Part shown: in pieces, positions 3,810 through 35,680 of the stretch
Numbering within the stretch: position 1 is the stretch's first letter
Layout of the letters: each line of letters starts with the position of its first letter
Assembly (NCBI GenBank): GCA_965645245.1
Contig: OZ287072.1
Span: 620,001-684,000, forward strand
Origin: Massalongia carnosa
Taxonomy: Eukaryota
Reading direction: 5' to 3'
Length of the DNA stretch: 64,000 bases
The notes under the pieces: generated by a model
Told to the model about the DNA's origin: nothing
The model's input: only the letters and a program-made list of their open reading frames with translations
Database searches by the model: none
Program-made: the position numbers and the translations under genes

Positions 3810-3985
3810 AACACAGAGTCACAAAACACATAGTCATCAATCACACGTTGTACAAAGCACACAGTCACAAAGCACACAGTCACAAACACACAGTCAAAAA
3901 ACACACAGTCACAAAACACACAGTCACAAAACACACAGTCACAAAACACACAGTCACAAAACACACAGTCACAAAAAACATAGTC
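3810..3985. repeat. 15-bp tandem repeat (ACACAGTCACAAAAC), ~10 imperfect copies
   Basis: Direct reading; it explains the (CVFCD)n ORF at 3734-4069. Confidence 0.9.
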
Positions 3986-4417
3986 GCAAATCAATAACAC
4001 GTCCCTGTGAAGGGGGTTCTGCGGGGGCTCGTTAAGACAGATCTGCACCCCGTTAATATCGGAGTACATATTTTTAGAGGTTCAAGTCCTTTCTAGCAGT
4101 CATCAGCTGAAAATAATCTATTTTGACACGGGCATGGTGTGGATTTGACACGGGTAGACCTCGATGGATCACAAAACGAATGAAAAGAGTCCAGCGGAAC
4201 TTCGTTAATATTGTTCTCGAAGACCTCGTTAATAAGATTTTCATAGACCTCGTTAACAACGTTCGGTCATACTCTTAAAGGTTCAAGTCCTTTCATGCAG
4301 TCATCGGCTGAGAGCTAAGGACGTACGACACGGGTCAGCTATGTCTATCACACGGGTCTCCTTCGTCTACAACACGGAGCCCTCCGGCTGAAAGAAATAA
4401 AACATATAGACACATAG

Positions 4418-9300: not shown

Positions 9301-9745
9301 CAGACAATTAAAGCACGACAGCTGAAAGTCTGGAACGACTCGTGGAGCGCATATCAAAATCGCGTCACCGAACCCTCCATAGCGCAATCAGTCCCACTGA
9401 GCAAAAAACGACTGAAAATACACACGCTGCTAAAAAAGGCAGAAAGCGCCCTGACAACACAGATCCGCACCGGTAAGATCGGTCTAGCTGACTTCCTCTA
9501 CCAGCGACGGGTCCCCGCCGTCACCTCACCGGCCTGCCCATGTGGCTGGCACAGACAAACTCCAGAACATGTAATTATGTTCTGTAGACTTATTGACAAT
9601 AGAGAACAGATGTTTTGCGCCGCTGGCACGAACAACTATCAACAGCTGACCGAAACATCAAAACTCTAAAGATATTAACTGCTTGGCTAATGAAAACAGG
9701 TCTACTGACCCAATTCTCACTGGCATCTACACTATTGTACAATTA
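6375..9745 (+). pseudogene. LINE ORF2 (APE endonuclease + reverse transcriptase + C-terminal CCHC), frameshifted
   Basis: ILQYNV, IQEPW, GDFNLHH, SDH, PQGSPLS and FVDD motifs. A 13-bp tandem duplication (AAAAGTCAAAAAC, ~8869-8894) shifts the frame, with a second shift near 9665. Confidence 0.93.
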
Positions 9746-12482: not shown

Positions 12483-13983
12483 TCAAAATCCGCAGAATGA
12501 CCCCCCCACACATCTCGACCTGATTGTTTCAGGCTTTGAATCTTCCTGGCCGTCGCTGCCTCCTTTTTCGGTTCCTCCCACAATATCTTTCCACTCCCTT
12601 TCCGGAGCCTTGTCAACCCCACCTCCTACCATGTCTCGATCCCATGCCCATTTCGCTCGGAGTTCCTCGTCAAGTGTGCCGTCGATCATCTTACCTATCA
12701 GCTCCCCCAGGATAGGGAAAAATTTCCATCCGTGGAACGATCCACCGGTGGCAAAATAAAGACCATCACAAGTCGGATGTGATGAAATGACAAAATCTCC
12801 GTCGCAAGCGAAATTGTCCCTAGTGGCCCATTAGATATCACAACGAACCGGTGAGGCTCAAGAACGGTCTGCACTCAATCCAGAAAGAGAGACGGATTTT
12901 ACCAGCATATCCTATAAGAATCAAATTTGAGGTCCTTACTCAATGCACCGAAGATACTATCACAAATGCGACGACACTCGTTCTTCATGGACACGGGCAC
13001 AGCATCTATGTTTGTAGGTACTGATATCATCTGTCCAGATTCTGCATGGAAAATTGAGTTCCTGAAGCTCGTCTCACCAGCAAACTTGAGGTAGCCGTCA
13101 TTCGTGGGAGGTAATACCTCGCCTTGTGTTCACCATAGCATTAGCTTTTAGATTTTTGGCGCCGGAAACAAGACAAGCGCGCTGGAGACAAACCATAAAT
13201 CTCCCCTACATCATGGACAGTGATAGGTAGGTTGGCAAACTTCTTGCGCTGTGTTGGGGATAACTTAACATGGCCAATAACACACCCAGCCGCCATCAGT
13301 CGATTCTCGACGCGAAGGTCTTGGCGGTTCGGAGCGCTGCTCGCGAGAAGCTGAGCGGTATGCGCGCCGGTGGCTAGAATCGTGTGAGTCGCAGTAAATG
13401 TTCTACCATCAGCGGCTCGTACTCCGGTACAGTTTCCAGATTTGTCAAACATTAAACTGGTAACTGTCGCCTGTACCATATCAACTCCGAGATTTGTAGC
13501 AGTCTTCATTACTTCAGCCAATGCAGGAAACGCCTCAACCCAGCCAGACTTGGGGTTGATATAAACTTCTTCGAGGTCCTGGAGGGCCATCCCGTTGAAC
13601 ATGCCAGAATACCGATGCTTCATGCCATTCACGGACACGAAACCTGCCTCGGACTCGATCCCCAGGCGGCGTAACTGTTCCAGTATCCTTCTGGAGCTGT
13701 CAAGCTCGCCTACTGTGAGCTTTTCTGAAGGATGGTAGAACCTGGCCCACAGAGGATCCTCCATCCAGGCCTTTCGCGCTTTGAGTGCAAGGCGGAGGTA
13801 CACCGGATCCTCATATTCGATGCGGATGATTCTATTGATATCTATCGATGCACCTGATTGCTCGGGGAGCGAGTCCGTTTCAACTAAGATGACTCGGCAT
13901 CGTGGCTGGGTTTTAGCCAAGTGATAGGCAGCCGAAACGCCAAAGATACCACTGCCAACGATGAGGAATGTTTTGATTTCCAT
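12483..13983 (-). CDS. FAD-dependent oxidoreductase (sarcosine/pipecolate/fructosyl-amino-acid oxidase family), multi-exon
   Basis: N-terminal LIVGSGIFG (GxGxxG), ASIDINRIIR, and C-terminal DFVISSHP..LYFATGGSFHGWKFFPILG. Introns near 13190-13125 and ~12940-12820 (exact structure uncertain). Confidence 0.88.
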
Positions 13984-14249
13984 TATTACACTGCACGATG
14001 TTAAATGAATCGACAAGTATAATGCTATATTGCCTTGAGTTATCATTTATAGGAAGTTTTGTCCGACTGTAGGACCGCAAGATCGATGATGCTAGAGACG
14101 GCGCTACCGCATGCATTGCATAAGCGTTGTTCGCTCTCTTCTCTTTTCTCTTTTCTCTTCTCTCTTCTCTCTTTTCTCTTCCTTCTTTTCTCTTTCTTCT
14201 TTCCTCTTTCCCTCGTTCCCTCTTTTGCTCTTTCCCTTCTTTGTCCTTC

Positions 14250-15973: not shown

Positions 15974-16953
15974 TTACCTAAGTTGTAGAGTTTTGTTGTG
16001 ATGAACAGTTTCCATATGCCTGTCGAGATTGCCTTGCCGAGTAAAGCCCTTGGTATTTCGACATCCATCAACAAGGCACTTCAAAGGCCGTTCATGTTTA
16101 TATAAATGTGCCCTATGAATTTAAGTGGGCTGTTCCAAGAGTAAAAATGTAACTAGAAGAAATGAAAGGGCAAATTGACTGACCTAAAGGTTGAATTCAT
16201 TTCAATCACGACTAGATTTCCATCCTCGTTGACCCCACCCTTGTCACACGCCAGTCCAAAAGGACAAGTGTGCTGTCCCTTCCCTCGAGCCCCTCGTAGT
16301 TGATCTAAGAGAGGAGTAATGTCGATGTCATGATCCTCTTCATCGTCATTATGGTCGTTCTCGACATCCTCCTCTCCGACCACATCTTCTTCTCTAGAAG
16401 AGGAGACTGTACGTGGCTGGAGAGGTGGCGGCATGGACATGTGAAACGGTCGTGGGATTACAGCTACGGATGCTGGGAACGTAGCCATGGCGCTGGATTC
16501 AACAGTCGAAGAGCCGGCAGGCTTTCGAAACTTGTTCCCATCCCAAGCTTGTTGGCAATCTCGCACTCCTGCAGCTACCACAGTAGCCATATGTCTGTTC
16601 AACGGTCAAAAAAGAGATTCCTATAGGAGTAGCGGGCCCCGGGCGGCCTACTTCAAAGCAGCGTGTTTGTCATTCAAGGAATCGATGAGTTCAAGTTCGC
16701 TCATCTCATCCATTGCCATTAGATGATCGATCTGCTCCTGGGCATAATCAGGAATTGCATCCCCAGATGCGATTGTATCTAATAGACGCGCCAAGAGTTT
16801 CAGCCAGTATGCACACAGATCAATCAGCTCGCCCACGAAGCATGGCTGCTGCCATGGAGGAGGATCTATGGAGGCGACGATGATTGGCATAAGCTGACGG
16901 ATCAGCCGCTGAGCTCTGTTATCCCGATCCAGAGCAGGAATAGCGGTGTCCAT
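15974..16953 (-). CDS. Zinc-finger protein with two C-terminal C2H2-type fingers, 3 exons
   Basis: GT-AG introns (~16651-16596, ~16184-16113) join ORFs 16648-16953 and 16153-16602 to a last exon. Fingers are CPFGLAC..FRAHLYKH and CLVDGC..GFTRQGNLDRHMETVH. Confidence 0.8.
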
Positions 16954-17324
16954 GATAGGTATGACTTAGAGTATTTCAAGCCGAGGAAGAAAGGTCCCTA
17001 GCTTTTGTAGAGACAATGAGTAAAGTACGCCTTACCTTTCTGATCATCCAGTTTTTTTAGATCATCGTTAGGCTGCTTGTGGCTGCATGATCATACGATG
17101 TCAATCACGGGATTCGGGTACAGCCTACTGGGAGCTATCGATATGTTGCATCCCAAAACTCTGGAGCAATAGATAAGAGCCTCGATCATGCTTCTGTTAC
17201 TTGACTACAGAATGATACTCAAGCTTGACCCGGCGAGAGACAACTTTGAAGTTCCTGCTCTGCATGAGCGCCCGAACGTCTTTCATCTGTCGAAATCCAT
17301 GAGGAGCAGCCTCTCCTTTCGAGT

Positions 17325-19602
17325 ATGGACTACTCCTCCGACTGGACTGCGGGAATGATGAACCTGGAACCACAGCGCCTTACCGATCATGACGAAGATG
17401 AAGATGATGAGGGCATTCCTTTAGATCAAATTCGTGGCAGTGACTGCGGATGGAGTAGCTCTGACTGGCTTGGCTTCGACATGCACGATATTGACTTCTC
17501 CCATACTCCGAGGTCTATACTTGCAAAACGAGCGTATGATGGCGCCACATTTTCGGATAGCAAAAGACATCAAACACTCCGTATGTTCCAGGCACTCCCT
17601 TCAACTGGCTACACTGCTTACAAATTGCCATCGTAGGCGTCGTCAACGATACCATTGAAGCGTTTGCCAGAGACCGTTATCCAGAGATGCTGCCTTCAGT
17701 GCCAGATATTGCGGATCGAACACTTGAGCGTCAAATTACCAATCCTTACCTCATTGATGGCATCACTCATCATCCGAAGCATGAGCATTGGAAGAAAACT
17801 GCCATTGGTATCAACGTGAAGGAAGTGAATGGTCTTCTCAAATTTGTTCGAAAGGTCACCGATAAGGCAGCACAAGCCCCAGCATATGGTGGAAATTTCC
17901 ACCCAAGTGTTTTCTGTGCACCGACACCGCGCCGCCCTACCTCCTCTGGACCAGTGTCCGAGATCCTTCGTCATTTGCCCTGGCTTCCTCCTGACTTCGG
18001 GCGAGGGTTCAAAATGAGCCCTCAGGATGAATCTCTATTGAGATTTTGTAAGTTTTGATGACACTTGATTGCGGGTAGCATCTTGACGTGTTTTCCGGTA
18101 GATGTCACTGCTTGGTGCAAAGGCCGCACGATACTTCACGACTCAAACAGCTTTCTAAAAGATGTGACTGCTATGTGTTCTGAGAGCGCCTCTGTCCGAC
18201 ACGCTATTTTCGCGCTTGCAGCGACATATGTCCTTGATTACGAGCCTGGGGAGAACCTAGAAAAACTTGCCGATATGCATCATCAAAAAGCTGTTATGCT
18301 ACTTGGCGAGCAGCTACGAAGCCCAGAAAGCTACGCCCCAGGGAAAGAGAATGCTGTACTAGCAACGATCTTCCTACTCAATCATGATGATGTAAAATTC
18401 TAGTTTCCCCCTCGGCACTAAAACTTCTAGCGATGCGCTGACGAATAAACAGTTCGTCAACTGGGAATTTCGGGACAAGGTTGCCACCCCGAAATGGGCG
18501 CTGGGTTTGCGGACTGCAAAAATGGTTCTTGAGAAGTCGGATCCGGGATACCGTTACAACTATCCTCACAATGTGCAATGTTCCAGCGCAAGGCGCCACA
18601 TTGGTGGCTGGATCGCACAATCGGCCATATTCTCCGCGGTGACGGAAAGATTAGACACTACTCAATCTAATTGCGGCTTCAAATGGCTTCTGGAGGGCGG
18701 TGAAAAGGAAGGCAGACGTATTGGACCTCATATGGGAATGGCCTCTAAACTTCTATATCTACTTGCGCAGGTTACGTATATATCTGCGCGATTCGCAGAG
18801 GTCTGCCTTAAAACGAGGTGCCCCATGTTGCACCACTGGGCTGACTCTCTACAACATAGGATCCTACCTCCAAGCTCTATCCTTTAGTTGCTAGCGCACT
18901 TGTCAAGCATTTGAAGAATTATTATCAATGGTCTGAGTTGGGTAACGGATATTCAACTACCCAAGAACTATTCAACTCTTGCGACGTAAACAGCGATGGC
19001 AAAGTTGATCATGCCGGGAAGGCTACCTTATTAGGCGCCGAGGCTCACGCCGCGTCAATCCGAATCTATCTACAATGTCGATTTTTCCGGTAGGATCATT
19101 CACGGTAGGCCCTCCAAGTAGAGAACCGGGCTAATACTATATTACAAGCAAACCCCGACATCACCCTGATGTGGAAGCAGAGCTGAAAACCCTGCTTCGT
19201 TGCATCAGCATGTTGCCTAGCAGTGGCCACCTTTTCACCGCTCAAGCCCCATTCTTTGGGGTGTGCATGGCGGGTTTCGTGGCCTACCGACCAGAGGACC
19301 GAGAGATCGTTCGTCAGTGGTTTTTGGTGGTAGTTGGAGGATCACGGGGGGTTAGTCCCACCAAGCTGTGACGTCCTCGTTTGTTTGAAATCTGATACGC
19401 GATTGGAAACCCAGTCTAATTGTGCCTTTTGCAGAATGTTCCGCCTGCCTGGTCTGCCGTACAGAGCCTTTGGAAGTGGCATGACTCCATGCCTGCAACT
19501 CAATATGCAGGCGACGATTCCCCCCCAGGGTTAAGGAAGGCATGGTGGGAGGACATGGTTGAAGCGTTCATACGGTATGAGGGTGTGCTTACCTACACGT
19601 GA
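17325..19602 (+). CDS. Fungal-specific transcription factor domain protein (Fungal_trans_2/DUF3468-like), multi-exon, no Zn2Cys6 cluster seen
   Basis: Colinear exons joined by GT-AG introns (first at 17581-17636). Segments VRHAIFALAATY, HHQKAVMLL, IYLQCRFFR, LFTAQAPFF and NVPPAW resemble this family. Confidence 0.72.
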
Positions 19603-20021: not shown

Positions 20022-22884
20022 CTACATCTCACAGGTCGGCTCCTTTACCGCGCATCCAAACGCCAACCTGAAATCGCGGGAGTTGGCTGCGGCACCCTTA
20101 AGCGGAAGGGTTAGCAGAATCTTCAGGCGTAGCGATCGCGAATTCGGTATCTTACGAGGATTCGCGCAAAATGTGGTGCATGGTTATTACTGCGGATATA
20201 CTTGCGTATGGTCTCCGCCTTCGTTTTGCTGCACCACCACGCTCCGTATGAAACGAAGAAGAGTTGTTCCTTAGAGAAGCGCTCCAAGCCCACGGGGATT
20301 TGGTCAGGGTATACTCTATCTTGCTCCTGCCATGCCCCGAAGGCAGCTCGCAAGCCACTAGCATCTGCGAGGTTTTCTTCCAGCGTGAGAGCCCCATCAA
20401 CATGCAATACGCTCCCATTGGGCCCGGATGCACTGAACTTGTTGTATTGGTCCACGAAGCATTGCGACCTCTGCGCGAATTGTCGTATTGTGTACTCGTC
20501 CCACCAGTCTGTCAAGTTGCCATTGGGGCCAAAATATCTGCCCATCAAATCGAAAGCTATGCTTGTCAGACCAAATCGCACCGGCAAGAGTGCAGGCCTT
20601 GATTACCGTGAGATATTTCGTGGCCCATTACCGCGCCAAAAGCACCATAGGTAAGACACTGCGGTAGTCTAGGACCGTAATAAACGGGTGGTTGCATGAT
20701 CCCCCCAGGTACAATAATCTGGTTTCCGGCAGGACTATAGAATGCCTAAAATCAACTTCAGCCATCAGATCCAAGGGGAAGGTTGGACTAAGAGCTCTCG
20801 CCTGCTTACGTTGACTGTCTCTACTGTTCTGTCCCACTCTCGTACGTCAGAGGACTCCGCCAATTTGGCAAATCTCTCATGATTCTTGGACTGCGCGAAA
20901 GAAATCACGTTCTCAAAATAGCCAACATCTGATATTTCAATCGAGCCGTAACGATCTTCGAGATCCACGGCGCTACTCAGGTTGGGATACTTGGAGGGAA
21001 ACGCGATCTCTGCTGTCATCTGATGCACTTTGTAGTCCTATCCGTCAAACACGCCTTACACTGGAGAGTGAGCAAGGTAAAGGTAGGAACTTACGTTTCT
21101 CCACTCCGCGCTCCTTAGCAGCTTGACTCATCCATTGTGCGAATTTCATTTGTTGGACATATGCTGCTGTTATAGCCGAAACAACAGCGCTTCCAAAGGA
21201 CTTAGCGTCTTTGGGCAAATGCCATTTTACCCACAAGTTACCCAGGATCCAACCTTTAGAGTCCAGTCAATCAAGTATTCGAAGAATTGCGGTTCTTTGC
21301 TTACCGAGACCTCCATTGACATGGCGTACGCAGACTTTCCATCGCTCTTCACTTGAAATCCGGGCCTTTCCCTGCAGATAATTTTCAAATTCAAACAGTG
21401 GCTGAACAGCTTCATGCCTGATGTTCATGGCGTGAGTTCGAACAGCGCTCCACACAAAATAGGCTTGAACGGTTCTTTCGTCTGTGCCTCGAAGGACTTT
21501 GGAAAGAATATCAAGATATGACGGTGCTGTAAGTATCACCTTCTGCGGGAGGAACCCTGACGTCTGATTGATGATAAGCTCCTTCAGCGAGATGTACGGC
21601 ATTCTTAATTCTGCTGCCTCTAGAGAGAACATATTGTAGTACTTTTCCACATCGAACCATTCTCGTACAGGCGGAATGGCTTCAGCAAGCTTTGTTTCGA
21701 AGTCGACAAGAGATTCGATCAGCTCGTTGGGTACCAGGAGATCACTATTCTGAGACCTCCAATTCAGAAAAATTGGGCCTTGGTGGCCAGCTGTTTCCAA
21801 TAATCGAGTAAGAACATCATGTATCACTATCTTATATTTGTCAACCAGCTCGGTATTCTTGTAAGATTCCTTTGTTGGCAAGCCGCTTCTATACACAGGA
21901 CGAATTAGCAACGAGTTTGTATCTGGTTCTTTATCGTCAATCTGTATAATTTCAGTATCGAAATACAAATGGGTGCAGAGTAGCGAGTAGTACTTTTGTA
22001 CGAAAGGAGATCAGCGCCTCTACTCCACGGTTCATCAAGTATACTACAGGCTCGGTAAGTTCATTCTCATCTTTACCAAGTTCTCCTCGCCTGCGTGACC
22101 GTGATCTGGAGTTCAAGGCACTATCCTCTAATATGGGTTTGGTTGCGAACGCGTCTTGAATTCCGAACATGATCCCAACCATTGGCGCCAGTCCTCTTCG
22201 CGTGATTTGGCTTTCATCCATACAGCATTCATATGCTTTCTGAACTTTGAGAAAATTGCGCTGCGCTGCGTTAGACGCGTCGTCGTTGTCAAAGCTTGAG
22301 GACAGCTGCGGGCCGTCCGACTCTAAGATACGGCGAAGCAGGTTCTGAGTTGCATCGGCCAGAATGGAACGTCGAGACAAGTCAGCCTGGTCTTCACGTA
22401 GCTCATGCCTGGAGTCCCATCCCCCACAGACGAAGTCTCGGAAATTCGTGCATGGGTCTATGTTTCTCGACAGCGGGGAAATGGTCTCTAATATATTTGC
22501 CGCAGCCAGAACGCATGCGGAAGATTTACATATTGGCGGATGTGGAGGTGATGTAAGTCGGTGAAATAGGTCTTGGATTCTCAGATTCAAGAAATCAAAT
22601 ACTTAAATAGTTTATTACTTACTTAACAGCAAAATAGATACTAAAGCAGTAGCAAGAACAAGGGTCAGAGTCTGCAAACCACACCATTTTAGCAATTTGT
22701 GATTTATTGCTGCCCTCCGGTCAGACCAAGAGTGGCCCAGATCATCCGACACCTCAGCATCTTCGTTCGTATCGTCATTTGAATTGTTGACGTGAGTCCG
22801 CCCCACATCACTTAACAAAATGTCATCTTCATCACTTCTCGTGGCCACAGGCGTATAACGACGACCGACAAGATATTTGTACAT
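20022..22884 (-). CDS. Peptidase family M13 (neprilysin/ECE-like) zinc metallopeptidase, type II membrane protein, multi-exon
   Basis: N-terminal TM helix, C..AC...DPCTNFRDFVCGGW, VNAFY, AVMGHEISH(A)FD zinc motif, EENLADASG, HAPHFARI and terminal C..KEPTCEM*. Confidence 0.92.
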
Positions 22885-23565
22885 ATTTCCAGAAACCGTG
22901 CACAGTTTGGGAGAACACCTGCAACCCGTCTTTGGAAGATCGAGATATCAACGGCGTCGTCTAGATTAGTATATCGTTCTTTTGTGGGCAAAGATTGAAG
23001 AATCTAATCAAAAGACGATAGTAGTACGAGGTTTCGATTAAAAGTAAAGTCAGGGTCTCGACACGAGGATAAGGATCCTCGCTCAAGTAGGAACAGACAT
23101 GACTAGATTTCTGACAACGCGTCATCGAGAATTGTTCGGAAAGAACTTTTCTTTAACATAAAACGTCGAATATCTCGTTTAATCCGTTATTACCTTTAGC
23201 AGAAATTCTCAAGGCGTCGAATTAAGCATCAACTATATATATATATATATTACGGAAGCATTTAAACCAACTCACAAAGTAAAGAGGAGACTGTTGCCTG
23301 CCTAAAGTTATTGTCTATCACCAAGGCACATAGGATTCTCTTTGAAGTTGCATATCGGTCACGTCCCAGGAGCAAAATTCCGTGAGGTTACTATTCTCGG
23401 TCTTGAGGAACGACAATGATCATTGAACCTTGGAGTTATTTCCCTCATTTTTGATACGTCATCATTCACGACATGATCCCATAGCGAAGACCATTGAAAC
23501 CCAAAAACCGAATATAGCGTCGCAAGCCTTGAGCTCCCGCTCCAATATCACTCTCCACATCGTCC

Positions 23566-23803
23566 TCAGCCATCTACCAGCAGATACGCTTCGTCTGCAT
23601 CACCAAACGCCTCTCCACGCTTCTTAGTTGCTATAATGTCCCCAAAAGTCTCTAGATCACGGCGGCCTATTTCAGCAGCTGGGAAGTTTTTAGTCGATCT
23701 TCTCTCGCTGTTGAAGAATGCACGTACTTCTCCCTGGGGTCGGCATGCTGAAAACCGCTAAGGCTAGACTGGCCACTGCGATGACGAACCAAATTCGGGA
23801 CAT
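23566..23803 (-). CDS. Putative secreted Kex2-processed RiPP (dikaritin) precursor peptide, 62 aa, 2 exons (23803-23728, 23678-23566)
   Basis: Hand-spliced: ATG after a CAA-rich leader, hydrophobic signal peptide, 49-nt GTACGT..GACTAA..CCCAG intron. Protein MSRIWFVIAVASLALAVFSMPTPGRTAEIGRRDLETFGDIIATKKRGEAFGDADEAYLLVDG*. Adjacent to a DUF3328 gene. Confidence 0.75.
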
Positions 23804-24656
23804 TCTGTGTGTTGTTGTTAAACTTGTCAGGCTTTCGTTGGATAAATAGTGAGAATGAGAAAGCTCTTGGAACTGGGAGTGTTGGTCGACGAGCGTCCGT
23901 AGTTGGGGGTTGCCTACGTCCGGCGATCTCTAGCCTTTTGTTACTTCGATTCTAAACTAAGAGGAGAATGTTGGAGCGATGGGTTTTCATGTGAAAAGCT
24001 GAAAGGGACCGCCCAAAGTTTCTCCCCGACACCAAGAGGCTCCGGGGCAGTTGCGATATACATACGCTGACATCAGATAACGTTATAGACTACAGGGTTT
24101 GGGTGAGGAGATAAGCTGTGGAGCGTATACTCGACCGAATTCGTATTCATGCAGCGATTCAATGCAGGATTCACTGCAATAGCAATGCTTGGTGTGACTC
24201 CTGCTGTTGAAGATCGACCGATGGCTACGCTCTGGCAGATAACTAGAGGACCTCGTATTGGCCGAGCATGGCCCATCATCAAACAGGAGCGGAAAGGCAA
24301 GCAGAATAAGCATATCGGGGATTTCAAAATTGAAGAGCCTGGAGAGGCAGTAGCGAATCGTCGACTGCCACGAAAATCCGTCGCCGACACGTGCCGCGTT
24401 AAAGTTGGGGGCAGCTGATCACAAAATTTAGCAATCGGGGACACCTGAAGTCCTCAAGGCTTAGCGAGCCACCGACACGCATGGGCGAGCCTTTACGTCT
24501 ATGGCACCTGAACCGGTGCGCGTACTGGCCTTGCACGTCGATGTCTTTTAGTAGCATGGATAGCGATGGCTACGCTACTTCATCTCGGCTGGCGTCAAAA
24601 ACTTGACATAGGTCCTAGATTTTTTCAATCATCGGTTCTCAGTGTTGTTGCTAACT

Positions 24657-25758
24657 ATGCCACAACATTCGATATCATATCAACCTCTGGCTCCTGAATC
24701 GCTCGACGAAGAGGATGATGTCCAAGCCAGCGTCTACGAGCTCGAGAAGTCAGCATTGAATGATTGGAAGACACAACTCCAGCCCTGGAAGTTGAGTCGA
24801 CCATTTGTGTTCCATGGATGTGTCCTCCTATTTTATACTTTAATCTTTATGGTAATGACGTTACGGCGTCGCGAGCTTTCTCCAAATGCCCCCGCGATCA
24901 TCTTTTGTTAATCATCCTTCCAAGCGGTCATCAGACCATACTGATCAAATGTAGCACCTGCACGCGAAGCCCTGCGCTACGAGCCGCGCATCTTTCAGAT
25001 AAAGAGGAACAAAGACCATATGGGGCCCTATTTCGGAGAGCCAAACGAAACCCTTGATCTAGCTTGGCATAAGCTACTACAAAGTTTGCAATGTCGCCAG
25101 ATGCTATGAAACAGTGGCTGACTTGTGCCTAAGATCAGAACATTCATGTTTCTCTCGCCGAACTTCAGCATTTCGAGGGGCGAGAAGAAGAGGCTGTGGC
25201 TTATCCCGATGGTTCCGGCTTCATGGCACAGCTACAGGTGTATCATGACCTTCACTGTCTTGTAAACTCCCAATGAACCAATGTTCACGAGAAGTACACT
25301 GACGTATAGATGGGAAGAAACGCATTCACCATACCATGTGGTTAGATTACTATTACCCAAATTTGACCGACACCGAGCGCGACGAGCTCAAGTTCCACAA
25401 CGGTGTGCGCTCCTTCATCGGCCATTCTGCTGTGCGCTGCGTGACGATCTCAACTGGCGAATTCTACGTAAAAGCTAACGAAGGGATTCGTCCAGATCAT
25501 TGCCTCGACACTCTCCGCGAGAGCATTATGTGCCATGCCGATATCTCCCTGCTCACAATGCGCTGGGGAAAGACCCAGCCCATCCCGCTTGCGAATTTCT
25601 CGGCTCCACACGAATGTATCAACTGGCAAAGCCTGGATGAATGGTCCCAGGGGCGGTCGGTAGATGTGATGAGGCCTGGATTCTTAGCTCATCCGACTCT
25701 AGGCCCTTCTTTTCCGAATGGACGGGGAGTGAGGACTGGGGTGGGCCATGATTCTTGA
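24657..25758 (+). CDS. UstYa-like / DUF3328 oxidase, multi-exon
   Basis: N-terminal TM helix, YFGEP..LDLAW, QLQVYHDLHCL (HxxHC #1), spliced FHN-DHCLDTLRESIMCHAD (HxxHC #2) and HECINW. Confidence 0.93.
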
Positions 25759-26821
25759 ATGGCCGCAGCTGTGGAGTTTTTCGTAAAAAATAACCTTGCA
25801 TTAAACAGTAAATATAAATTTTGGAGTCTCGACAGTTTTGGATCTAAGCTTCAGAGGCTGTAATGCTTTTTATGCACATGCGAGGACACAAGAACACGTT
25901 TGGCTGAGCGTGAAGTACCAGGACAAAGTCAATGAACGGTCTGACACACTGTGCTATGGCTTGTTTATTGCTGCTTGTTACCACGCTTTTCAGTCATTAC
26001 TGTGGTTTATCAGAGTTCAACTTTTTTCAATGAAAATCATCCAAATCGATTAGCTTTTTATATAGGACCATCACAAAATAAAACAGTCGATACGTAGGCT
26101 ACATTTCTGGATTTTTGTCTCTCGTAAAGCCTCCCTCACATGTTGCCAACCCTAACAAATCCTTGGGTTTGTGACCAGGCCCCTTGCGGCCGCAGAAGCC
26201 TCGAATGCCGTGACTATTGCTCTCTATGCTGTCATTGGGGGTTGACCGAAGAACCCCAGCCCAGCACTAGGGGCTATATAGGATCTTAGAAGAGCATCAA
26301 CATCAGCAGCTAACGCTCCTATCTAACGTCAAACTGGGCGGAACTAAGGTTCGAGCTAATAAAGAAGATGCATCGCTACCCAGGTGAATCTATGATGAAA
26401 GCGATTCACTCTCGCGTGGAAGCTGTATTGCGATGGATGAGGAGCATGCCAAGGATTTACCTCTAGAGCCAGAGGCCTCGAAGCAGATGGCGGATGTTTA
26501 TTCGGAAGGGACTCCAGATGGAGCTGTGAAGAGCTCTTTGTGATACTTGGTTGTTAGTTTGTAGATTTTGGAGCCACGATGGAAGATCTTCTACCAGACT
26601 ACAGAGTGTACTCTCATAGCCCTTCGCGATCTCGCTTTGACGCTGGAAACAGTCACACGAATGGAATTTGAGAGATGGAATGATAGGAGAAGAAAGGAGC
26701 TAATCGGATGGATGGTTGACACCGAGTACTTCCACCAGTCGTAGCAAAGCGAGATACTTAGGGACAGTCCCCCCCCTCCCCCCCTGTGTAAATCTTTGCT
26801 CGTAAACAGCCATTTCACTGC

Positions 26822-27271
26822 TCATCCAGGGTGCGTACAAGCTAGTAAGCGCCCATATGTCGCAAAAGCTCCGACGATGAATAGCCCGCCCAGGCCAATG
26901 TAGAAGGTTGTGAGATCGAAACCGAACAGTAACTCCGCCCCACCGTCCGATTTGGTTGCCAAGTCAAGAATCTTTCCTATTGAGAAAGGAATCGAAATTG
27001 AGATCACCGATGATACCATCAAAAAGCCGAAAGCAAGCGCAAGAATTTTAGTTTCCCCTTTGGCGATACTCAGCAACCTCCATACTTCTCGAAAACCGCT
27101 CCATTTGCCTGTGGTTTTTCCTGCCGTCAGACGTGCGCTAAGATTAAGCTGCGCAACTTTCTCCGCCTTCTCGGGCGGTCTGAATGCTTTCTCTGCTTCT
27201 CTGTGTTCTTGTTCAATGTCCTTCACCTCAGCCTGGAGCCTTGATTGTGGTGTACACCAAACGTTGTTCAC
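26822..27271 (-). pseudogene. Isolated N-terminal TM fragment of an MDL1/MDL2-like ABC transporter
   Basis: GFREVWRLLSIAKGE..LAFGFLMVSSVISISIPFSIGKILD..GAFATYGR; no further TM helices or ATPase domain downstream. Confidence 0.7.
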
Positions 27272-28167: not shown

Positions 28168-29016
28168 GAGAGGGTCATCTGAATTATGTTAGAAGAAATC
28201 CCAATTACTAGTCAGAAATGGGTTGATGGGCACACCTTGATTATCACCAACTTCACTGTATCGATTTGAGATTGTTGTATTCCCGCGTTGCTGGATACTT
28301 TCCTCAAAAAAAGATCTGAAAACAGGCCGAGGAATCGATTTGGCCAGCGATAGAAACCGGCAATGTTCGGCAGGATCGTTTATGTCATCATCGATTTCGT
28401 CTGTCTCGTCGATCACGATCAGGTCGTCCTTGAATAGTTAGACGCGCTCACAGAAACTTGGACCTATGCACTAACCTTCACGCCGGGCCTTCAACCTGTG
28501 TTCACCTTCTTCACCCTCGTTCAAACCTATTCTGTCTACTATACGCTTGAAGGAATCTCGAATATCGATAGCGCTCGTGTATGTCACAGACTCAGCATCC
28601 GTAGGGCGTGTTGGGCTCCACATTCACGACAAGCCAGCCTGATCTGCTGTCGATTTCACAGCGTCTTCTCGGAGCGAAAGCCGCCACCCAACCTGTGGCG
28701 GTTCAGGATTTGGCGGCGCAATGGGCGATCGAAGAGAGCATAGAATTATATTGTCTGTATTGCAGTTCGCTTCTTTGTCCCCTTTCTCATTTTCTCTAAT
28801 AAAGTAATGAGGCTCATTATTTTTGAAGCAGACTTGTGTATCGTGTGCCGACGAGAGGAGAGTATCAGGAAGCGGAAGAGAAGGATCAGAGATAGAGTCT
28901 TTTGTCTTCTCGTGAAGGATGGAACATCTACGTAGGCGCTTTCTGTTAGTATTAAAATTAGCGAACGGGGTTTCAAGAGCCGTACCGAGCTTCTGAGCCT
29001 GTCATAGAGGTCAGTA

Positions 29017-31160
29017 TCCCTTCGTCTGGCAATTTGGCAGCCATTTAGGTAATATTCAATTTTACACGCGCCGTCTCCGGGTAATGACTAATAACTTTAA
29101 TCTGGCCAATCAGATTTTCCCTTTTCAACGATAATGGGTACAACACCTCAATCACCCCTCATGATCTATGTAAAATTTCCCAACATGCCTCCTTTTTGCA
29201 ACATGGTCCACAGCTCTTACATTGCCATCTGGTCTGACTTGCACATCGTCTTTTGGTGCAATTTTCATCAATTTCCGCAAGTGGTCGGCGTCGTTTGAGT
29301 CTTGGCACTTGCCTTTTGCAGGCCAAACAATAGTGCTTCTTATTCAAATGCTCCGATTTGCAAGTTGACTCGACGTCTTTATTAACGTCTTGATTAGTAG
29401 TAACTATGACATCTGTCGGACGTTTCCGTAGGGCACCGGCTTGATTGGATAGTAGGGCATTTACTATTTCTTTTTGAAAGTCCAAATGGCTGAGTGTTGA
29501 ATTCGGATACAGAATTCTCCACAATTTGAAGGCATTTAGAACGGCTGCATCCAGAAGAAAGATGAAAATTGACCACCAGTAGCGACGATCAGATCTTTGA
29601 GGTGAATAATATGTTCTTTGCTGAGCATTCCTATCTGACCCGCCCATGTGCTGGTTATATTCCACGATGGGCATGGGAAATGGAAGCTTTTCTTCTTCAT
29701 CATCAACGATGACTCTGGAATTTGCAGGAATTCCATGACGTCGACGGGAATTCTTGTAGAAAGAAGTCTTCAAATCCTCAATTGTATGAACCGTGGTCAT
29801 GAATTGCACGGTGTTTAAATCCACCCATGCCATACACAGAATGTCCCCGTCATCAATGTTTGATTTTTTACTTTTATTTGCAGGTACCGTCATCAATGCC
29901 TTCTTTCCCCAGTCCTTATTCTTGGTGGCTGCAACCCTCAGACGTAGAAGATCAACAGGAAAACCGCATCCTGATTTAGCCGTCCCACAGGCACCAATTC
30001 CAATGGTTTTCAGAGCTTTGAATAGCTTCGTATTTGTGAAGAAGTTGTCCAGAAAGATGACGTATTTCAAGCCTTCATCAGACGGTAAACTTCGAGCCAG
30101 TTGAATGACGACTAGGGAGGAAGGAGACAAATACCATTTGGTTGTCGGAAATTTCAATTGTCCAGGCGTTTTTAACTCACTAATTTTGGACACCTGTCTT
30201 GCAATTAGTACGATGCAAATTGAGGCCTTTTCTACTCACCTTGGAGGTAAATAAGAAGTCAAAAAGATAATTTTCCTGACATAAACTATAGATTTTGAAG
30301 CCTACACCAGCCGCCTTGGTGGCTATTTGCATAGTATGGCAGCTCCTACCCCTGAATAAAATCAATTGCTCGTCAACTGACACATGACTTCCAGGAATCC
30401 AGTATTTCTTTGATGCTTTTCGAAAGTCTGTGGCCAATGGTTCCAGCTTTTTCCACCAATCAGGGCCTCGAGTATCAATGATCTCATCTTCGTCGGGGTT
30501 GGATATCTTCAAAAATCGCTTGAGTTGCTCCCATCTTCGAAGACTCATGGCTTGAATCAACATGTCATGTATGGCAAATTTAGGAGACGTGTTCCAATAG
30601 TCAGTAAGACGTGGCATCAGTGTATACCCCATATATAACAGAATTCCCAGAAAAGCTCCTACTTCAGAAGAAGAGGTGTCATGCCATTGACGTCTCTTGA
30701 TGTCGTTTAGGGCATACTTCTTTTTCGCTTTAAGATTGGTGTTTGTGGCTATGATTTCAAGCATTTCAAAGCTAAAGAAGAGGCAGAATAAACTGAAAGG
30801 AGTCTGCTTTATCAAGCGCAACGTCTCGTCCGGCTGTGGTTTTCGAAATGGGATCGAAATTGGACAATAATTTGATGACGGAGGGGGCATGGAGTCAATT
30901 ATGCTTTGTACGCTGGGTTTATTCTTTTTGGCCTGTTCTTTCAGAATTGAGGGGGGCAAAGCGTCTGATTGGTCAGGAACTTCTATCTCAATGCCTCTCA
31001 TGATTATTCTAAAGAAATTGTAGATGTTTTAATGATTTTCAACTGATGTTTACCTTCTTATTTACAAAAAAAGGGGAGAATGTTTTGAAGTTCGTGACTC
31101 AGCCCTACGGTATCTCACTAAGCCTATTTAAGGTGGCTGCCAAATTGCCTGACGAAGGGA
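29017..31160 (-). mobile_element. piggyBac-like DNA transposon, apparently intact
   Basis: 27-bp TIRs TCCCTTCGTC(T/A)GGCAATTTGGCAGCCA at 29017-29043 and 31134-31160, each flanked by TA. Confidence 0.9.
29159..31001 (-). CDS. piggyBac-family transposase, ~598 aa, one intron (30194-30239)
   Basis: Catalytic VSVDEQ, FLDNFF and YNQHMGGSD motifs, DAAVLNAF, and a Cys-rich C-terminus. A GTGAGT..ACTAAT..CAG intron joins the two ORFs in frame. Confidence 0.9.
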
Positions 31161-32615
31161 TAGTACAGAGGTTGACACCGAAAGTCCTGATAATACGCTA
31201 ACGTAATTCACCTGTATTCGGAACACCCGCTTATTCGGAACTAACAAAACCACGAAACTTACTTTCAACCATTATCTCTTCTACAACTTATTGAAGAAAA
31301 CCCTAAAACTGATTTAATAAGGTAAAGGGTATTATAATGATTATAATAGCTGGTTATCGATAAATTACACCGCTGAATTGGCTTCTTCCCGGCAGTTTCG
31401 AGTTACAAAATCGGGATTGCGTACTACCTTGAAAGATGAGGTTAGAGAACGTTTAAAATAGGCAGTTAAGGTCTATGAGAAGGCAGAAGGGTTGTTATCT
31501 ATTACGCAAGCTGCTTGACTTCATGCGGTACCGAAAACAACATGTATCACAGGATAAACAGTCGCCAGGACCAGGTATCGTACGTTACTTCAAAGCAGAG
31601 GTTAACGCCCGAGGAGGAGGGATCTCTTCAGAGCTGGGTTAACCAGAGCTACCAAACTCCGCCATTTGACAAAATATCAGCTAAGCCTTATACGGACGAT
31701 GACACTCTACCCAGCGCTAGTACTCTTATCCAAACGCGTTATATTTCAGGCCAAATATCACCAATATCAGGAAACATAGTACAAGTCTCAGAGGTTGAGG
31801 AGTTTATATTACTATTTCGCCATCAGACTCTTGATTCCTCTAAGCTTACTCTTCTACAAAAAACCATTAAAGCAGCTAGGCTTGCTATGACTGATCGTAT
31901 TGTCTTGAATCGTACTAATACGGAGCTTTTAGCAGCCAATACACGAAAAAAACAACGAGCTCAACGTACGGGCACTCAATACGATGTTCAAGGGGCTCGC
32001 GTATTGAGTTTAGAAGATGTGGAGAAAAGAAGACAACTAGCTGAAAATAAGAAAAAGGAGAAAGATGCTAGATCACAGGTAAGGAAAGAAAAACAGAACG
32101 ATCGACTATTTTTTCAGGTATCTAAAGACCTAATGCGATTTGAACCCGACCTAATATACGTGCCTGATCTTGTAACATCTTGATCTTTACTTAAAATAAG
32201 AAACGAGACGATTCTATCTTTTAAAACGCTTTTCACGACCTTATTCAGATTACACCTTATATTTTTAAGGAGACAGTTGAGGGCGACCTAGGGTTTAAAA
32301 AAACTGCTCGAAATAAAGAAAAAGGTATACCAAGAAAGAAAAATATCACTAGGTTGGTACAAGGTGATGTGGAAATAGTAGGAAAGGGGGAGAAGTAGGA
32401 AGTTTTAGAGGTTCGGGTTAGCTCGCGCGGTCGTGTTGTCATCTGTAACACTCGTAAAATGTAGCTCTACAAGCTTATGCTAGCTATATATATTCACTAG
32501 AACCTGTTCATCAATTCCCGAGTACATGTGCTAGAAATTTTGCGGATGCGGCGCTGATAAAAAATTACGAAGGTTGGTATCAAATTTGTTAGTTCCGAAT
32601 AAGCGGGTGTTCCGA

Positions 32616-33942
32616 CACGCGGGGGACAAAAAAAAAACTACACCAAAATTTAACCGGGCTCAACTCCCCACCAAAACACAAGCAATTTACATACGATTTT
32701 GATGGGATAATTATCATTATTATGAATTCTAAACATATCGAGACTCCTACCAAAGCTAAAATTCAGGGAGCCGTTGAATTTTGCGAAAAGCAAGGCATTT
32801 CTTATCACAAAGAGGATGTTTTTCGCACATTTGATGTGGAACGTACGAGGGGCTATGCATACCTGCGTGAAGGAGCCTCATCACGCCGTCATCATAATAA
32901 TTCCGATGTTTCTGGAGCTCGTGGGCGTCACAAAATTGTTACGCCTAAATTGATTAGAGAAATGGAACGGCTATTGGAAGAAGAAGGTATGGAGGCGCGC
33001 GCTCTTACATGGGAGCAATTGGGCTTCGAAGTAGGCCTAGACTGCAGTGGCAAAACCATTCAACGAATCATGGGCACCATGGATTATCACAAATGCATTG
33101 CGTGCAGAAAGGGATGGGTGAACGAGAAGACAAGAAAGCTTCGTATGAAGTGGTCAGATGCTATGCTTTCTAGATATCCAAATGCAGAAGACTGGAAACA
33201 AGTTCGATTTAGTGACGAAGTGCACTTTGGATGGGGACCTCAGGGCAAATTACGCATCATACGAAGATTAGGTGAACGTTATTGTCATGATTGTATTCAA
33301 GAAGCAGATGAACCAGACGAGGCCGTCAAGAAGAGACATCACTGTTGGGCTGCTGCAGGTCATGACTTCAAGTCAGATATCTACTTTTACAGAGTTCCTG
33401 GAAACTCCAATGGAAAGATGAGTCAACGAGTCTATATCGACTCTATATTGGAGCCTATTGTGAAGCCCTGGATTGAAGCAAAACACGATTTCGTCTTAGA
33501 AGAAGACGGTGATTCTGGACATGGACCAGGCAAATCAAACATTGTACGCACTTGGAAGCAGAACAACGATCTGAAGCACTATTTCAACTGTCCATGTTCA
33601 CCTGATTTGGCCCCCATAGAAAATTGCTGGCAGGCCCCGAAGCAATATTTAGAAAAATATCCTCATTGGGATGATGATACGACCAAGGGGCTAATTTATG
33701 AGGGGTGGGCGAACGTTTCCCAGGCATTTATCAATGAACGGGTGTCTACTATGCCAGATAGATTGAGAGCTGTTTTGGATGGTGAGGGTAAAATGACTGG
33801 TTATTGAATAGATTGAATGAATTGGATGACTGGTTGTTGAAATGGTGATTATCCCATCAAAATTGTATGGAAATTGCTTGTGTTTTGGTGGGGGGTTGAA
33901 CCCGGTTAAATTTTGGTGTGGTTTTTTTTTGTCCCCCGCGTG
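32616..33942 (+). mobile_element. Intact Tc1/IS630-like transposon with ~100-bp imperfect TIRs (CACGCGGGGGAC...GTCCCCCGCGTG)
   Basis: TIRs read directly; TCCGA repeated at 32611-32615 and 33943-33947; sits inside the pogo right TIR. Confidence 0.92.
32722..33807 (+). CDS. Tc1-like transposase, DD37E, 361 aa
   Basis: VRFSDE, LEEDGDSGH and SPDLAPIENCW motifs; 37 residues between the second D and E; uninterrupted ORF. Confidence 0.92.
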   Translation: MNSKHIETPTKAKIQGAVEFCEKQGISYHKEDVFRTFDVERTRGYAYLREGASSRRHHNNSDVSGARGRHKIVTPKLIREMERLLEEEGMEARALTWEQLGFEVGLDCSGKTIQRIMGTMDYHKCIACRKGWVNEKTRKLRMKWSDAMLSRYPNAEDWKQVRFSDEVHFGWGPQGKLRIIRRLGERYCHDCIQEADEPDEAVKKRHHCWAAAGHDFKSDIYFYRVPGNSNGKMSQRVYIDSILEPIVKPWIEAKHDFVLEEDGDSGHGPGKSNIVRTWKQNNDLKHYFNCPCSPDLAPIENCWQAPKQYLEKYPHWDDDTTKGLIYEGWANVSQAFINERVSTMPDRLRAVLDGEGKMTGY

Positions 33943-34082
33943 TCCGAATAGCGGTGAATTACGTTAATGCGGGCAAAAAACGCCACGTAGATTTAGCGTT
34001 AAATGCTATAGGGATATCATTCAAAGTGAAAAAAGGATATCTATCGAATGATCCATACATACATTCACGAAAAACTTCGAAA

Positions 34083-35680
34083 ATGATCAACACACTCGCG
34101 CAAGACCGCGAGAAACGCAAGAAGGGGCAGGAGGAGAAGATAAAGCTCTTGGGAGCAAAGATAGATGAGTACTTAAAGCCCGGTAACAGCGTAGGAGACC
34201 CGGTGGCGCAAACTCTGTTGAAGGAGGTTAAAGCCACGTTGCAAGCCCAGCTTCACATTAATTCGGAAAACGAAGACACCGTCACGGTAGCAGAGTCCCT
34301 ACGGGACATAAGAAACGCACTTAATCGCATGGAAGGCACCAAAAAGAATAACGAGCCCCCCACAAGCTACGCCGCCGCGGCCACCCCGCTGGCGCCCCAG
34401 AACCAGGCCGGGCAAAGCCCGACGTACAATCTTAAGCACCCCAAACCCCAAAAAACCAAAGAGCCATCCCCCAGCGAGGCCAAAAGGGCCCGGGAGATCA
34501 CACTACGAGTCACGAACGAGGCCGATCGAGAAAGAGTGAGACAGATGCCCACTCAGGAGTTGGTGGAATCGCTGCAGAAAAACGTCGAAGGGATAGTGGG
34601 AATATCGCGACTTACAAGCGGAGACATACGAATTCACGCAGAATCAGCAGAGGTCAAGAAGACCTTATATGAAAACACTGAATGGATCACTGCGATTGCG
34701 GCGTCTGCTACAGTCCAACGCCGCACCTATGCAGTGCGAGCTAGCGGAGTAAAGATGGCACATATCGATGCCACCAATCAGAATCAAACCATACAGTACC
34801 TGCAGGCAGCTAACGCACGATTACACTCAGGCCTAAAAATCACGAGAATCGCCTGGTCGTTCAGGGCCATCAAAGAAAAGAAGACATACTCGTCGCTGCA
34901 TGTAGAAGTAGAGACTCCCGCGATGGCGAACCGCCTCATCACCGAGGGCTTCCTCGTCGATCATGAGATTAAGAATTGCGAAAAATTCGTAAAAAGTTGC
35001 AAGCTAACGCAGTGCTTCAACTGCTATAAATACGGACACATAGCAAAACGCTGCCGCAACCCAACGGCGTGCGGGCTCTGCGCCGGCGGGCACTCGACCA
35101 ACGAATGCAACCCAGAAACAACAGGTAAACACAAAAGGTGCGCATGCTGCGAGGAGAGAGGCCACGTAGCGTGGGCCCCAACATGCAAACTCAGATTACT
35201 AGAAATGAGCAAGATAGAGAAGGCCAGGAAAAGCTCACCCCAGCTCTTCGTCACGGGCGACCCGATCGTAGCGCGGTCATTCATCTTCTCGTCTCAAACC
35301 TCAACGGACAAGGAATGCAGCGCAACACCAGGGGAGGCAACGGAGAGACCTGTCAACGGTTCCTGGAAGGTCGTCACCAGCAAGAAAAGGAAAACCGCCC
35401 CAGCGGGTTCCCAAGAAGTCTCCTCGGCAGGTCCCAGCCGCGTAGCGGGCATGTCATGGAAGGACACGGAGATCATGAAACCCATGAACATGCAAAGAGC
35501 GATGGCAAAGCCAACTCTTGGCAGACCACTAAACACACCAACCGCAGCAACACCCGCCCCGTTCCGCACGGATCCCGCCCCCCCCCGCCGACCCTTGAAT
35601 CATCTCCCTCCCCCGCCGACCCAGAATCGGACCACCCCACCGCCCCGGCAACGGACGTAATGGAAGAAGGAGATTTATGA
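34083..35680 (+). CDS. LINE ORF1 (gag-like, three CCHC knuckles); probable frameshift in the poly-C run at ~35578-35587
   Basis: CFNCYKYGHIAKRC, CGLCAGGHSTNEC and CACCEERGHVAW. The alternative frame ends in an ATGA overlap with ORF2, as in the first LINE. Confidence 0.85.

What the first reader, a model, noticed from the sequence alone, without database searches (positions are those of the whole stretch)
20022..25758. Candidate minimal dikaritin-type RiPP system: secreted precursor + DUF3328 oxidase + M13 neprilysin-like peptidase
Seen: three adjacent genes with intact reading frames. An M13 peptidase (-) and a 62-aa Kex2-site precursor (-) sit head-to-head across an ~850-bp intergenic region from a DUF3328 gene (+) with two HxxHC motifs. 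Known: ustiloxin, phomopsin and asperipin-2a are made from signal-peptide, KR-flanked precursors cyclised by UstYa/DUF3328 enzymes, often via Tyr ether links; the ustiloxin cluster peptidase UstP is S41 family. Inference: this trio makes an uncharacterised cyclic peptide, and an M13 enzyme, which I do not recall from characterised dikaritin clusters, trims the Kex2-released segment. M13 enzymes typically cut N-terminal to hydrophobic residues, which fits F/Y/L/V in the segment.
Basis: partly seen in the sequence, partly recalled or inferred. Interest (0 to 1): 0.9.

Follow-up and report, generated by a model that had tools for sequence, protein, structure and literature searches.

The report
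Lichen-type peptide cluster with neprilysin paralogue
This fungus carries a three-gene unit (a small secreted peptide gene, a copper-type peptide-modifying enzyme and a specialised second copy of a neprilysin-like peptidase) that probably makes a modified peptide using a class of trimming enzyme not found described for such pathways in the papers searched.

Summary
The three genes are real and intact: an 822-aa type II membrane M13 peptidase with all catalytic residues, a ~62-aa signal-peptide/dibasic-site precursor, and a 284-aa DUF3328 with two HxxHC motifs. The precursor's layout matches this genome's other DUF3328 precursors: 7 of 17 other loci carry repeat precursors, 6 of them head-to-head, 4 with the same phase-1 intron. 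The M13 is not the housekeeping copy. The genome has a second M13, and the window's gene sits in a long-stemmed clade (100/100) whose named members are lichen fungi. In Xanthomendoza that paralogue (Q9182_006392) is numbered next to the closest named relative of the window's DUF3328 (Q9182_006391), both with a 35,589-bp contig. The clade has Arg at neprilysin Phe106 (11 of 11, against 0 of 54 others), so a purely hydrophobic cut site is doubtful. Best reading: a minimal DUF3328 RiPP cluster with a dedicated M13 trimming enzyme (0.6). Not shown: expression, any product, the core residues, a precursor homologue, or linkage in more than one other genome.

The parts
20022..22884 (-). M13 (neprilysin-family) zinc endopeptidase, derived paralogue; 822 aa, 8 exons (22884-22623, 22571-21994, 21941-21305, 21253-21095, 21027-20810, 20745-20607, 20556-20156, 20096-20022); cytosolic tail with an acidic di-leucine motif, one hydrophobic anchor at about residues 69-90
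22369..22374 (-). R154-R155: clade-specific arginine pair at the positions of neprilysin N105/F106 (S1'/S2' wall)
   Evidence: gapless HMMER alignment of P0001 to human neprilysin; tallies; coordinates
20608..20622 (-). HExxH zinc motif H660-E661-H664; further conserved N618, E725, D729, H790, R796 (neprilysin N542, E646, D650, H711, R717)
23566..23803 (-). Precursor gene, about 62 aa: hydrophobic signal peptide on exon 1 (76 nt), phase-1 intron 23727-23679, RR31-32, unit 1 (residues 33-43), KKR44-46, unit 2 (residues 47-62) holding the only Tyr (Y57) and ending at the stop
   Evidence: no homologue found
23804..24656 (.). 853-bp divergent intergenic region between precursor and DUF3328; holds an exact 13-nt direct repeat (24219-24231, 24564-24576), two of four exact copies in the genome
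   Evidence: promoter role is inference
24657..25758 (+). DUF3328/UstYa-family oxidase; 284 aa, 5 exons (24657-24906, 24955-25083, 25134-25261, 25318-25402, 25496-25758); YxxL tail motif, anchor at about residues 49-69, HxxHC at 164-168 and 196-200

Best explanation
A minimal fungal RiPP cluster of the DUF3328 (dikaritin / ust-RiPS) kind, with a duplicated and specialised M13 peptidase as its own trimming enzyme. Shown: gene structures, intact catalytic motifs, the paralogue status of the M13, adjacent numbering of M13 and DUF3328 in one other genus. Inferred from known systems: the precursor enters the ER; a Kex2-type protease cuts after RR32 and KR46, releasing a 1.2-1.3 kDa and a 1.6 kDa acidic peptide; the lumen-facing, dimeric copper DUF3328 oxidises one of them, most likely cross-linking Y57 of the C-terminal unit (-2 H); the lumen-facing M13, whose chamber admits only small peptides, removes flanking residues. 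Inferred from the active site alone: the new Arg pair binds a carboxylate, so the likeliest cuts are just before Y57 (hydrophobic P1') and/or before D61, removing the terminal Asp-Gly. The repeated ExFGD block is read as a recognition or spacer element; it could instead be part of the core.
For: (1) Intact genes and motifs. (2) Internal control: of 17 other DUF3328 places, 7 have an adjacent signal-peptide gene with repeated units (L039, L040, L042, L043, L044, L045, L047), 6 of them head-to-head, and 4 have a phase-1 intron at nt 64-76; the window's is at nt 76. A metagenome relative (L055) has the same layout, intron at nt 70. (3) Two M13 genes in the genome. The C2 copy groups with Pyrenodesmia/Seirophora (97/98); the window copy groups with P0001, Xanthoria and Xanthomendoza (100/100, stem 0.91, 23 rows; same clade in the 33-row quick tree). 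(4) Xanthomendoza Q9182_006392 / KAL8798780.1 (M13, 52% to the window) and Q9182_006391 / KAL8798779.1 (DUF3328, 70% over the last exon; its best hit among 18 own-genome loci is the window) are consecutive, both with a 35,589-bp contig. They came from two separate searches; chance adjacency is about 2 in 6,400 or less. (5) No M13 in the 10-kb stretches around the other 17 DUF3328 places, no DUF3328 in 16 kb around the C2 M13. (6) Arg at the F106 position in 11 of 11 clade members against 0 of 54 others. (7) Full-length intronless orthologues on contigs barely longer than the coding sequence (P0001: 820 aa on 2,812 bp; P0083: 285 aa on 1,120 bp) suggest spliced mRNA in other organisms (inference). 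(8) Matching topology: CctR is a membrane-anchored, lumen-facing copper dimer of Golgi/endosome/vacuole (PMC12435403); neprilysin takes peptides up to about 3 kDa (PMC11700742).
Against: Linkage is seen in 1 of 4 named genomes that carry the paralogue. For Xanthoria steineri, X. calcicola and X. aureola no DUF3328 partner came up, from a search that scored only 23 candidates. The Xanthomendoza evidence is locus numbering and contig length, not DNA: orientation, spacing and a precursor there are unseen, and both models are incomplete (the DUF3328 lacks the first HxxHC region, the M13 lacks an internal stretch and its normal C-terminus), which may be annotation error or decay. Two Sordariales DUF3328 relatives (54-57% over the last exon) had no matching M13 paralogue among the hits. 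The precursor has no detectable homologue, its repeat is weak (227 of 5000), and its Tyr motif has Leu, not Ile, at position 3. No tyrosinase on this contig and no transporter or reductase beside the trio. DUF3328 enzymes also hydroxylate or halogenate non-RiPP substrates. The 11 Arg-bearing sequences are not independent: 5 come from one Xanthoria 90% cluster.
Confidence: 0.6

Rival explanations
1. Precursor and DUF3328 form an ordinary two-gene RiPP unit like the genome's other ones. The M13 paralogue is an old neighbour kept by residual synteny and has its own substrates.
For: The other 7 precursor-DUF3328 loci have no M13 within their 10-kb stretches; adjacency is shown in only one other genome; whether the flanking genes are also syntenic could not be tested.
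Against: The two genes are about as diverged as housekeeping orthologues (52% against 55-56%) yet remain numbered side by side; in the window the trio lies among transposons and captured fragments; the paralogue has a remodelled substrate pocket.
Confidence: 0.2
2. The M13 belongs to the cluster but destroys rather than matures: like animal neprilysin it clears the peptide, its uncyclised form or the acidic spacer pieces (signal termination or self-protection).
For: Neprilysin inactivates small peptides (PMC11700742, PMC2259306 passages); an Arg-lined pocket suits the Asp/Glu-rich spacers; the same linkage and tree evidence applies.
Against: The C-terminal unit has no dibasic site next to the Tyr motif, so a further maturation cut is needed on the best reading; cluster peptidases in known systems are maturation enzymes (S41 family, KexB).
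Confidence: 0.12
3. The product is not a macrocycle: the DUF3328 hydroxylates, desaturates or halogenates a linear peptide, or acts on a metabolite made elsewhere, and the small gene is a linear signalling peptide.
For: CctR is a hydroxylase and ApnU a halogenase; only one Tyr, no Ile at position 3, no tyrosinase nearby; no characterised DUF3328 is among the close hits.
Against: Head-to-head layout and shared intron with Tyr-containing repeat precursors in the same genome; a single DUF3328 suffices for Tyr-to-beta-carbon rings in asperipin-2a.
Confidence: 0.08

Closest known systems
Asperipin-2a cluster (aprA, aprY, aprT, aprR; Aspergillus flavus)
   Same: One DUF3328, no tyrosinase, signal-peptide precursor with Kex2 sites (PMC6514808 and PMC7329392 passages).
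   Different: No transporter or reductase found beside the window trio; asperipin's cluster lacks a peptidase; the window precursor has two degenerate units and one Tyr.
Ustiloxin and phomopsin clusters
   Same: Acidic residues followed by a Tyr-led hydrophobic tetrapeptide and an Asp; a cluster-encoded peptidase; DUF3328.
   Different: Their cores are YxIx with a Tyr-Ile ether, and need tyrosinase and 2-5 DUF3328 genes; the conserved peptidases are S41 family. Here YLLV, one DUF3328, no tyrosinase on the contig, and an M13.
Epichloecyclin cluster (gigA, gigB, gigC, kexB)
   Same: Small cluster with one DUF3328 and a cluster-specific protease beside the general Kex2 (PMC10540207 passages).
   Different: Its protease is an S8 kexin and it has a SET methyltransferase; here a zinc M13 and no methyltransferase found.
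Neprilysin / ECE-1 / PHEX (M13 family)
   Same: Type II membrane topology, HExxH, ExxxD, H711 and R717 equivalents; the model of orthologue P0001 (pLDDT 85.7) matches neprilysin at E 1.8e-41, TM 0.74/0.87.
   Different: Arg at N105/F106, no conserved R102/R110, E or D in place of the G of GENIAD, D for N542 in 5 of 6 full-length clade members but not the window. PHEX is the known M13 with acidic P1' preference; no shared PHEX motif was tested.
Lichen RiPP clans R1 and R2 (PMC12048977)
   Same: DUF3328 clusters in Lecanoromycetes; the authors note missing or possibly single-core precursors.
   Different: R1 has tyrosinase and O-methyltransferase, R2 GNAT acetyltransferases, both in Parmeliaceae; 'M13', 'neprilysin' and 'endothelin' occur 0 times in its text and 4 supplementary files.

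Membership tests
Dikaritin / ust-RiPS fungal RiPP | DUF3328 enzyme with two HxxHC motifs (class-defining) | tested here: met
   PF11807; HxxHC at 164 and 196; definition from PMC12048977 passages
Dikaritin / ust-RiPS fungal RiPP | Precursor with ER signal peptide next to the DUF3328 gene | tested here: met
   Hydropathy and layout only, SignalP not available
Dikaritin / ust-RiPS fungal RiPP | Kex2 dibasic sites | tested here: met
   RR31-32 and KKR44-46; cleavage itself untested
Dikaritin / ust-RiPS fungal RiPP | Highly repeated core sequences | tested here: inconclusive
   Only a 5-residue imperfect repeat, 227 of 5000 shuffles; the Tyr motif occurs once
Dikaritin / ust-RiPS fungal RiPP | Product macrocyclised through a Tyr ether | not testable with these tools
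   One Tyr present; no chemistry
Ustiloxin/phomopsin subtype | YxIx core plus cluster tyrosinase | tested here: not met
   YLLV; none of 12 tyrosinase matches lies on contig C6
M13 metallopeptidase | PF05649 + PF01431, HExxH, VNAFY, ExxxD, type II anchor, neprilysin fold | tested here: met
   fold tested on orthologue P0001
Housekeeping fungal M13 orthologue | Groups with the broadly shared ascomycete M13 copies | tested here: not met
   Separate 100/100 clade; the C2 copy fills the housekeeping place
Neprilysin-type hydrophobic P1' specificity | S1' lined by F106, F563, V580, W693 | tested here: inconclusive
   V639, V657 and W772 are hydrophobic, but F106 is R155; activity untested

The most novel reading that the evidence does not exclude
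Lichen-forming fungi duplicated their neprilysin and rebuilt its pocket around an arginine pair, making a carboxylate-directed RiPP maturation protease of a class not reported for fungal RiPPs. The conserved M13-DUF3328 pair marks a family of short, near-single-core precursors that repeat-based mining misses, and works as a prohormone / oxidase / neprilysin module for a symbiosis-related peptide.
Probability: 0.3. Interest if true: 0.8.

Novelty: new variant of a known kind. Interest (0 to 1): 0.62.

Why it matters
How fungal RiPP cores lose their flanking residues after Kex2 cleavage is only partly known; the cluster peptidases seen in the papers read are S41 or kexin types. A dedicated M13 would be a new maturation enzyme class, testable with three genes and two short synthetic peptides. 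The paralogue is also a search handle: the lichen RiPP survey could not find precursors for its clusters, and this 62-aa, intron-split gene is the kind that annotation and repeat-based mining skip.

Tried and rejected
No RNA holder was listed by the run search; this says nothing on expression. Run X4 (share 0.47, second study) proved to be the same sequence at low DNA depth, not a relative or RNA, so it gave no selection signal. Precursor homologues: own genome, self only; 1.84-billion-protein phmmer, 2 hits, both long repetitive proteins judged chance; Atlas, low recognition and unrelated bacterial clusters. Linked loci as DNA: the metagenome scan with the DUF3328 alignment gave 1 locus from 87 pattern matches (L055), whose contig ends inside its precursor so an M13 cannot be seen; M13-paralogue scans gave 0 of 202 viral and 0 of 55 prokaryote stretches. 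The single-sequence fold of P0001 failed (pLDDT 35.5) and was redone with an alignment. No solved DUF3328 structure by sequence. No complex prediction was obtained, so binding of the precursor to either enzyme is untested. The first M13 model had an off-by-one exon edge, fixed. The strict precursor rule recovered only 2 of the 7 other precursors, so it is specific but not sensitive. The 23-row tree left out 12 of the 33 earlier rows (long-branch animal, basidiomycete and fast Sordariales rows, two near-duplicates) and added 2. The ABC-transporter piece at 26850-27239 was rejected as a cluster transporter: it is a 92% copy of a stretch on C1 beside a high-copy repeat. RIP indices of the three genes show nothing unusual. 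These unseen files may bear on linkage and expression.
Full report
Observation. The window is from a 52-Mb, 25-contig fungal genome. All three genes are present with open spliced frames. The M13 gene (minus, 22884-20022) has 8 exons and encodes 822 aa with an N-terminal tail, one hydrophobic anchor (about 69-90), VNAFY 617, HExxH 660-664, E725, D729, H790 and R796; its exons hit PF05649 and PF01431. The precursor gene (minus, 23803-23566) has a 76-nt first exon carrying a hydrophobic signal, a 49-nt intron with a branch-like motif, and dibasic sites at 31-32 and 44-46; 62 aa is the best model, 58 and 53 aa are in-frame alternatives. The DUF3328 gene (plus, 24657-25758) has 5 exons, 284 aa and two HxxHC motifs; a 285-aa JGI protein, 73% identical end to end, supports the model. 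Only the precursor faces the DUF3328 gene (853 bp); the M13 follows the precursor on the same strand.

Is the small gene real? No homologue was found and no RNA run was listed, so the case rests on layout. The genome has 18 DUF3328 places including this one (three are near-identical copies). At 7 of the other 17 there is an adjacent signal-peptide gene with repeated units; 6 of these are head-to-head with the DUF3328 gene, and 4 have a phase-1 intron at nt 64, 73, 76 and 76. The window's intron is phase 1 at nt 76. A metagenome relative of this DUF3328 (L055, 59% over its best segment) has the same arrangement with the intron at nt 70. A rule built from these features after the fact hits only this ATG in the window and 3 of 1000 shuffles. 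The mature part holds two degenerate units sharing ETFGD/EAFGD (227 of 5000 shuffles). The second unit is acidic, holds the only Tyr (YLLV) and ends in Asp-Gly at the stop.

Is the M13 a housekeeping gene? No. The genome has a second M13 on C2, 39% identical to the window's. In a 23-row maximum-likelihood tree the C2 copy joins Pyrenodesmia and Seirophora proteins (97/98), while the window copy forms a 100/100 clade on a 0.91 stem with an unnamed Logan protein (P0001, 54%), Xanthomendoza, Xanthoria steineri and X. calcicola (same clade in the 33-row quick tree). X. aureola is in the same 90% cluster. Of 17 unnamed metagenome fragments compared, 14 are closer to the window copy than to C2 and 3 closer to C2. 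The named members are lichen-forming Teloschistaceae; I did not identify the window's organism.

Is it linked to DUF3328 elsewhere? Two independent searches converged. The closest named DUF3328 relative is Xanthomendoza Q9182_006391 (KAL8798779.1; 70% over the last exon), whose best match among the 18 own-genome places is the window (201 summed bits against 65). The Xanthomendoza member of the M13 clade is Q9182_006392 (KAL8798780.1). Both list a 35,589-bp contig. Chance adjacency is about 2 in 6,400 or less (inference from the locus numbers). Limits: this is 1 of 4 named genomes with the paralogue; I saw numbers, not DNA; both Xanthomendoza models are incomplete; residual synteny cannot be excluded. 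Within G000 no M13 lies in the 10-kb stretches around the other 17 places, and no DUF3328 near the C2 copy.

The active site. P0001 aligns without gaps to human neprilysin across residues 87-110 (numbering counted by me), and its alignment-based model has the neprilysin fold (pLDDT 85.7; E 1.8e-41). S1' in neprilysin is lined by F106, F563, V580 and W693, and S2' by R102, D107 and R110 (PMC11700742 passages). The window keeps hydrophobic V639, V657 and W772 but has R154-R155 at N105/F106. Among 65 fetched or modelled M13 sequences that cover this motif, all 11 clade members have Arg at F106 (9 labelled in the script plus 2 Xanthoria cluster members; 5 of the 11 are from one 90% cluster), against 0 of 54 others (Gly in 51). 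R102 and R110 are not conserved in either fungal group. M13 enzymes usually prefer hydrophobic P1', with PHEX the acidic exception, and S2' variation is thought to set specificity (PMC2259306 passages). I infer a pocket re-tuned to a carboxylate, which suits the Asp/Glu-rich units or the terminal Asp-Gly. This is inference from sequence; no docking or assay was done.

Mechanism. Most likely (0.6) the precursor is secreted into the ER and cut by Kex2; the lumen-facing copper DUF3328 oxidises the C-terminal unit at Y57; and the lumen-facing M13 trims the flanks. DUF3328 topology, dimer and copper site follow CctR (PMC12435403 abstract and passages). Both enzymes carry tail motifs of the sorting type (their role is recalled, and housekeeping M13s have them too). 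Rivals: bystander M13 (0.2), clearing rather than maturing M13 (0.12), non-cyclic or non-RiPP chemistry (0.08). No tyrosinase lies on this contig (0 of 12 matches), the only S41 match is on C21, and Pfam scans of 22, 20 and 45 open frames found no intact transporter, reductase or methyltransferase beside the trio, so an asperipin-like single-enzyme route is more likely than a ustiloxin-like one.

Comparison with what is known. It works like a dikaritin / ust-RiPS cluster and meets the DUF3328, signal-peptide and Kex2 criteria; the repeated-core criterion is inconclusive and the product untested. It fails the ustiloxin/phomopsin subtype test. Cluster proteases in the papers read are S41 (PMC6514808 passages) or the kexin KexB (PMC10540207 abstract and passages); general background from PMC9233826 and PMC7329392 passages. 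The lichen RiPP survey PMC12048977 (passages, part 2 of 7, and 4 supplementary files) does not mention M13; nor do the X. parietina preprint or the Tangerine paper PMC13486527, both seen as passages. Searches: neprilysin + fungal + DUF3328, 0 papers; UstYa + M13 + precursor peptide, 0; endothelin-converting enzyme + fungal + gene cluster + cyclic peptide + Kex2, 0; lichen/M13/metallopeptidase/UstYa, 7 unrelated listings; DUF3328/RiPP/peptidase M13, 30 of 32 listed, none holding both DUF3328 and peptidase M13. The library lacks most subscription journals, where much fungal RiPP chemistry appears, so absence from print is not established.

Verdict. It is a new variant of a known kind. Interest 0.62, held down by the single external linkage, the unseen precursor orthologue and the lack of expression or product data.

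Noticed in passing
L039, L040, L042, L043, L044, L045, L047 (G000 C6, C3, C1, C16, C2, C6, C15): Seven more KEP-DUF3328 loci with unlike repeats: a Tyr-rich asperipin-like core (L039), ER-separated Tyr repeats (L042), Trp/His/Tyr-rich long repeats (L044), and a Cys-Cys-Asp-Phe-Tyr unit (L047) whose frame shows an in-frame stop or a second intron between its two units.
   Followed up: partly
window 24219-24231 and 24564-24576: Exact 13-nt direct repeat in the precursor/DUF3328 intergenic region; two of only four exact matches in 52 Mb. Possible shared regulator site.
   Followed up: partly
window 26027-27239: Pieces copied from C1:415-422 kb (81% and 92%), one an ABC-transporter exon, around a ~100-nt high-copy repeat at 26750-26848; looks like transposon-captured DNA.
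   Followed up: partly
window ~17300-19600 (+), ~16000-16970 (-), 12486-14046 (-): A Fungal_trans_2 transcription-factor gene convergent with the M13, a possible C2H2 gene, and a DAO-family FAD oxidoreductase; link to the trio untested.
   Followed up: no
L055 1-515 (-): Head-to-head signal-peptide gene beside a DUF3328 relative; it has Cys residues and an acidic segment after RR that loosely resembles the window's second unit, though without Tyr.
   Followed up: partly
L050, L051, L052 (G000 C7:36 kb, C7:2713 kb, C1:3537 kb): Three near-identical DUF3328 copies, two with matching flanks, and no precursor seen; possibly carried on a mobile element.
   Followed up: no
G000 C8:1918 kb and C8:1937 kb: A tyrosinase lies about 19 kb from a DUF3328 gene, with another DUF3328 at 1991 kb; a possible ustiloxin-type region.
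   Followed up: no
window 1800-11400 and 29000-41000: Dense transposon blocks on both sides (DDE transposases, LINE-like reverse-transcriptase frames, a 48-nt tandem array near 2800-3400).
   Followed up: no
P0062, P0064, P0066, P0069, P0070: A second long-branch fungal M13 clade, in Sordariales, separate from both the housekeeping and the window clade; neighbours unknown.
   Followed up: no
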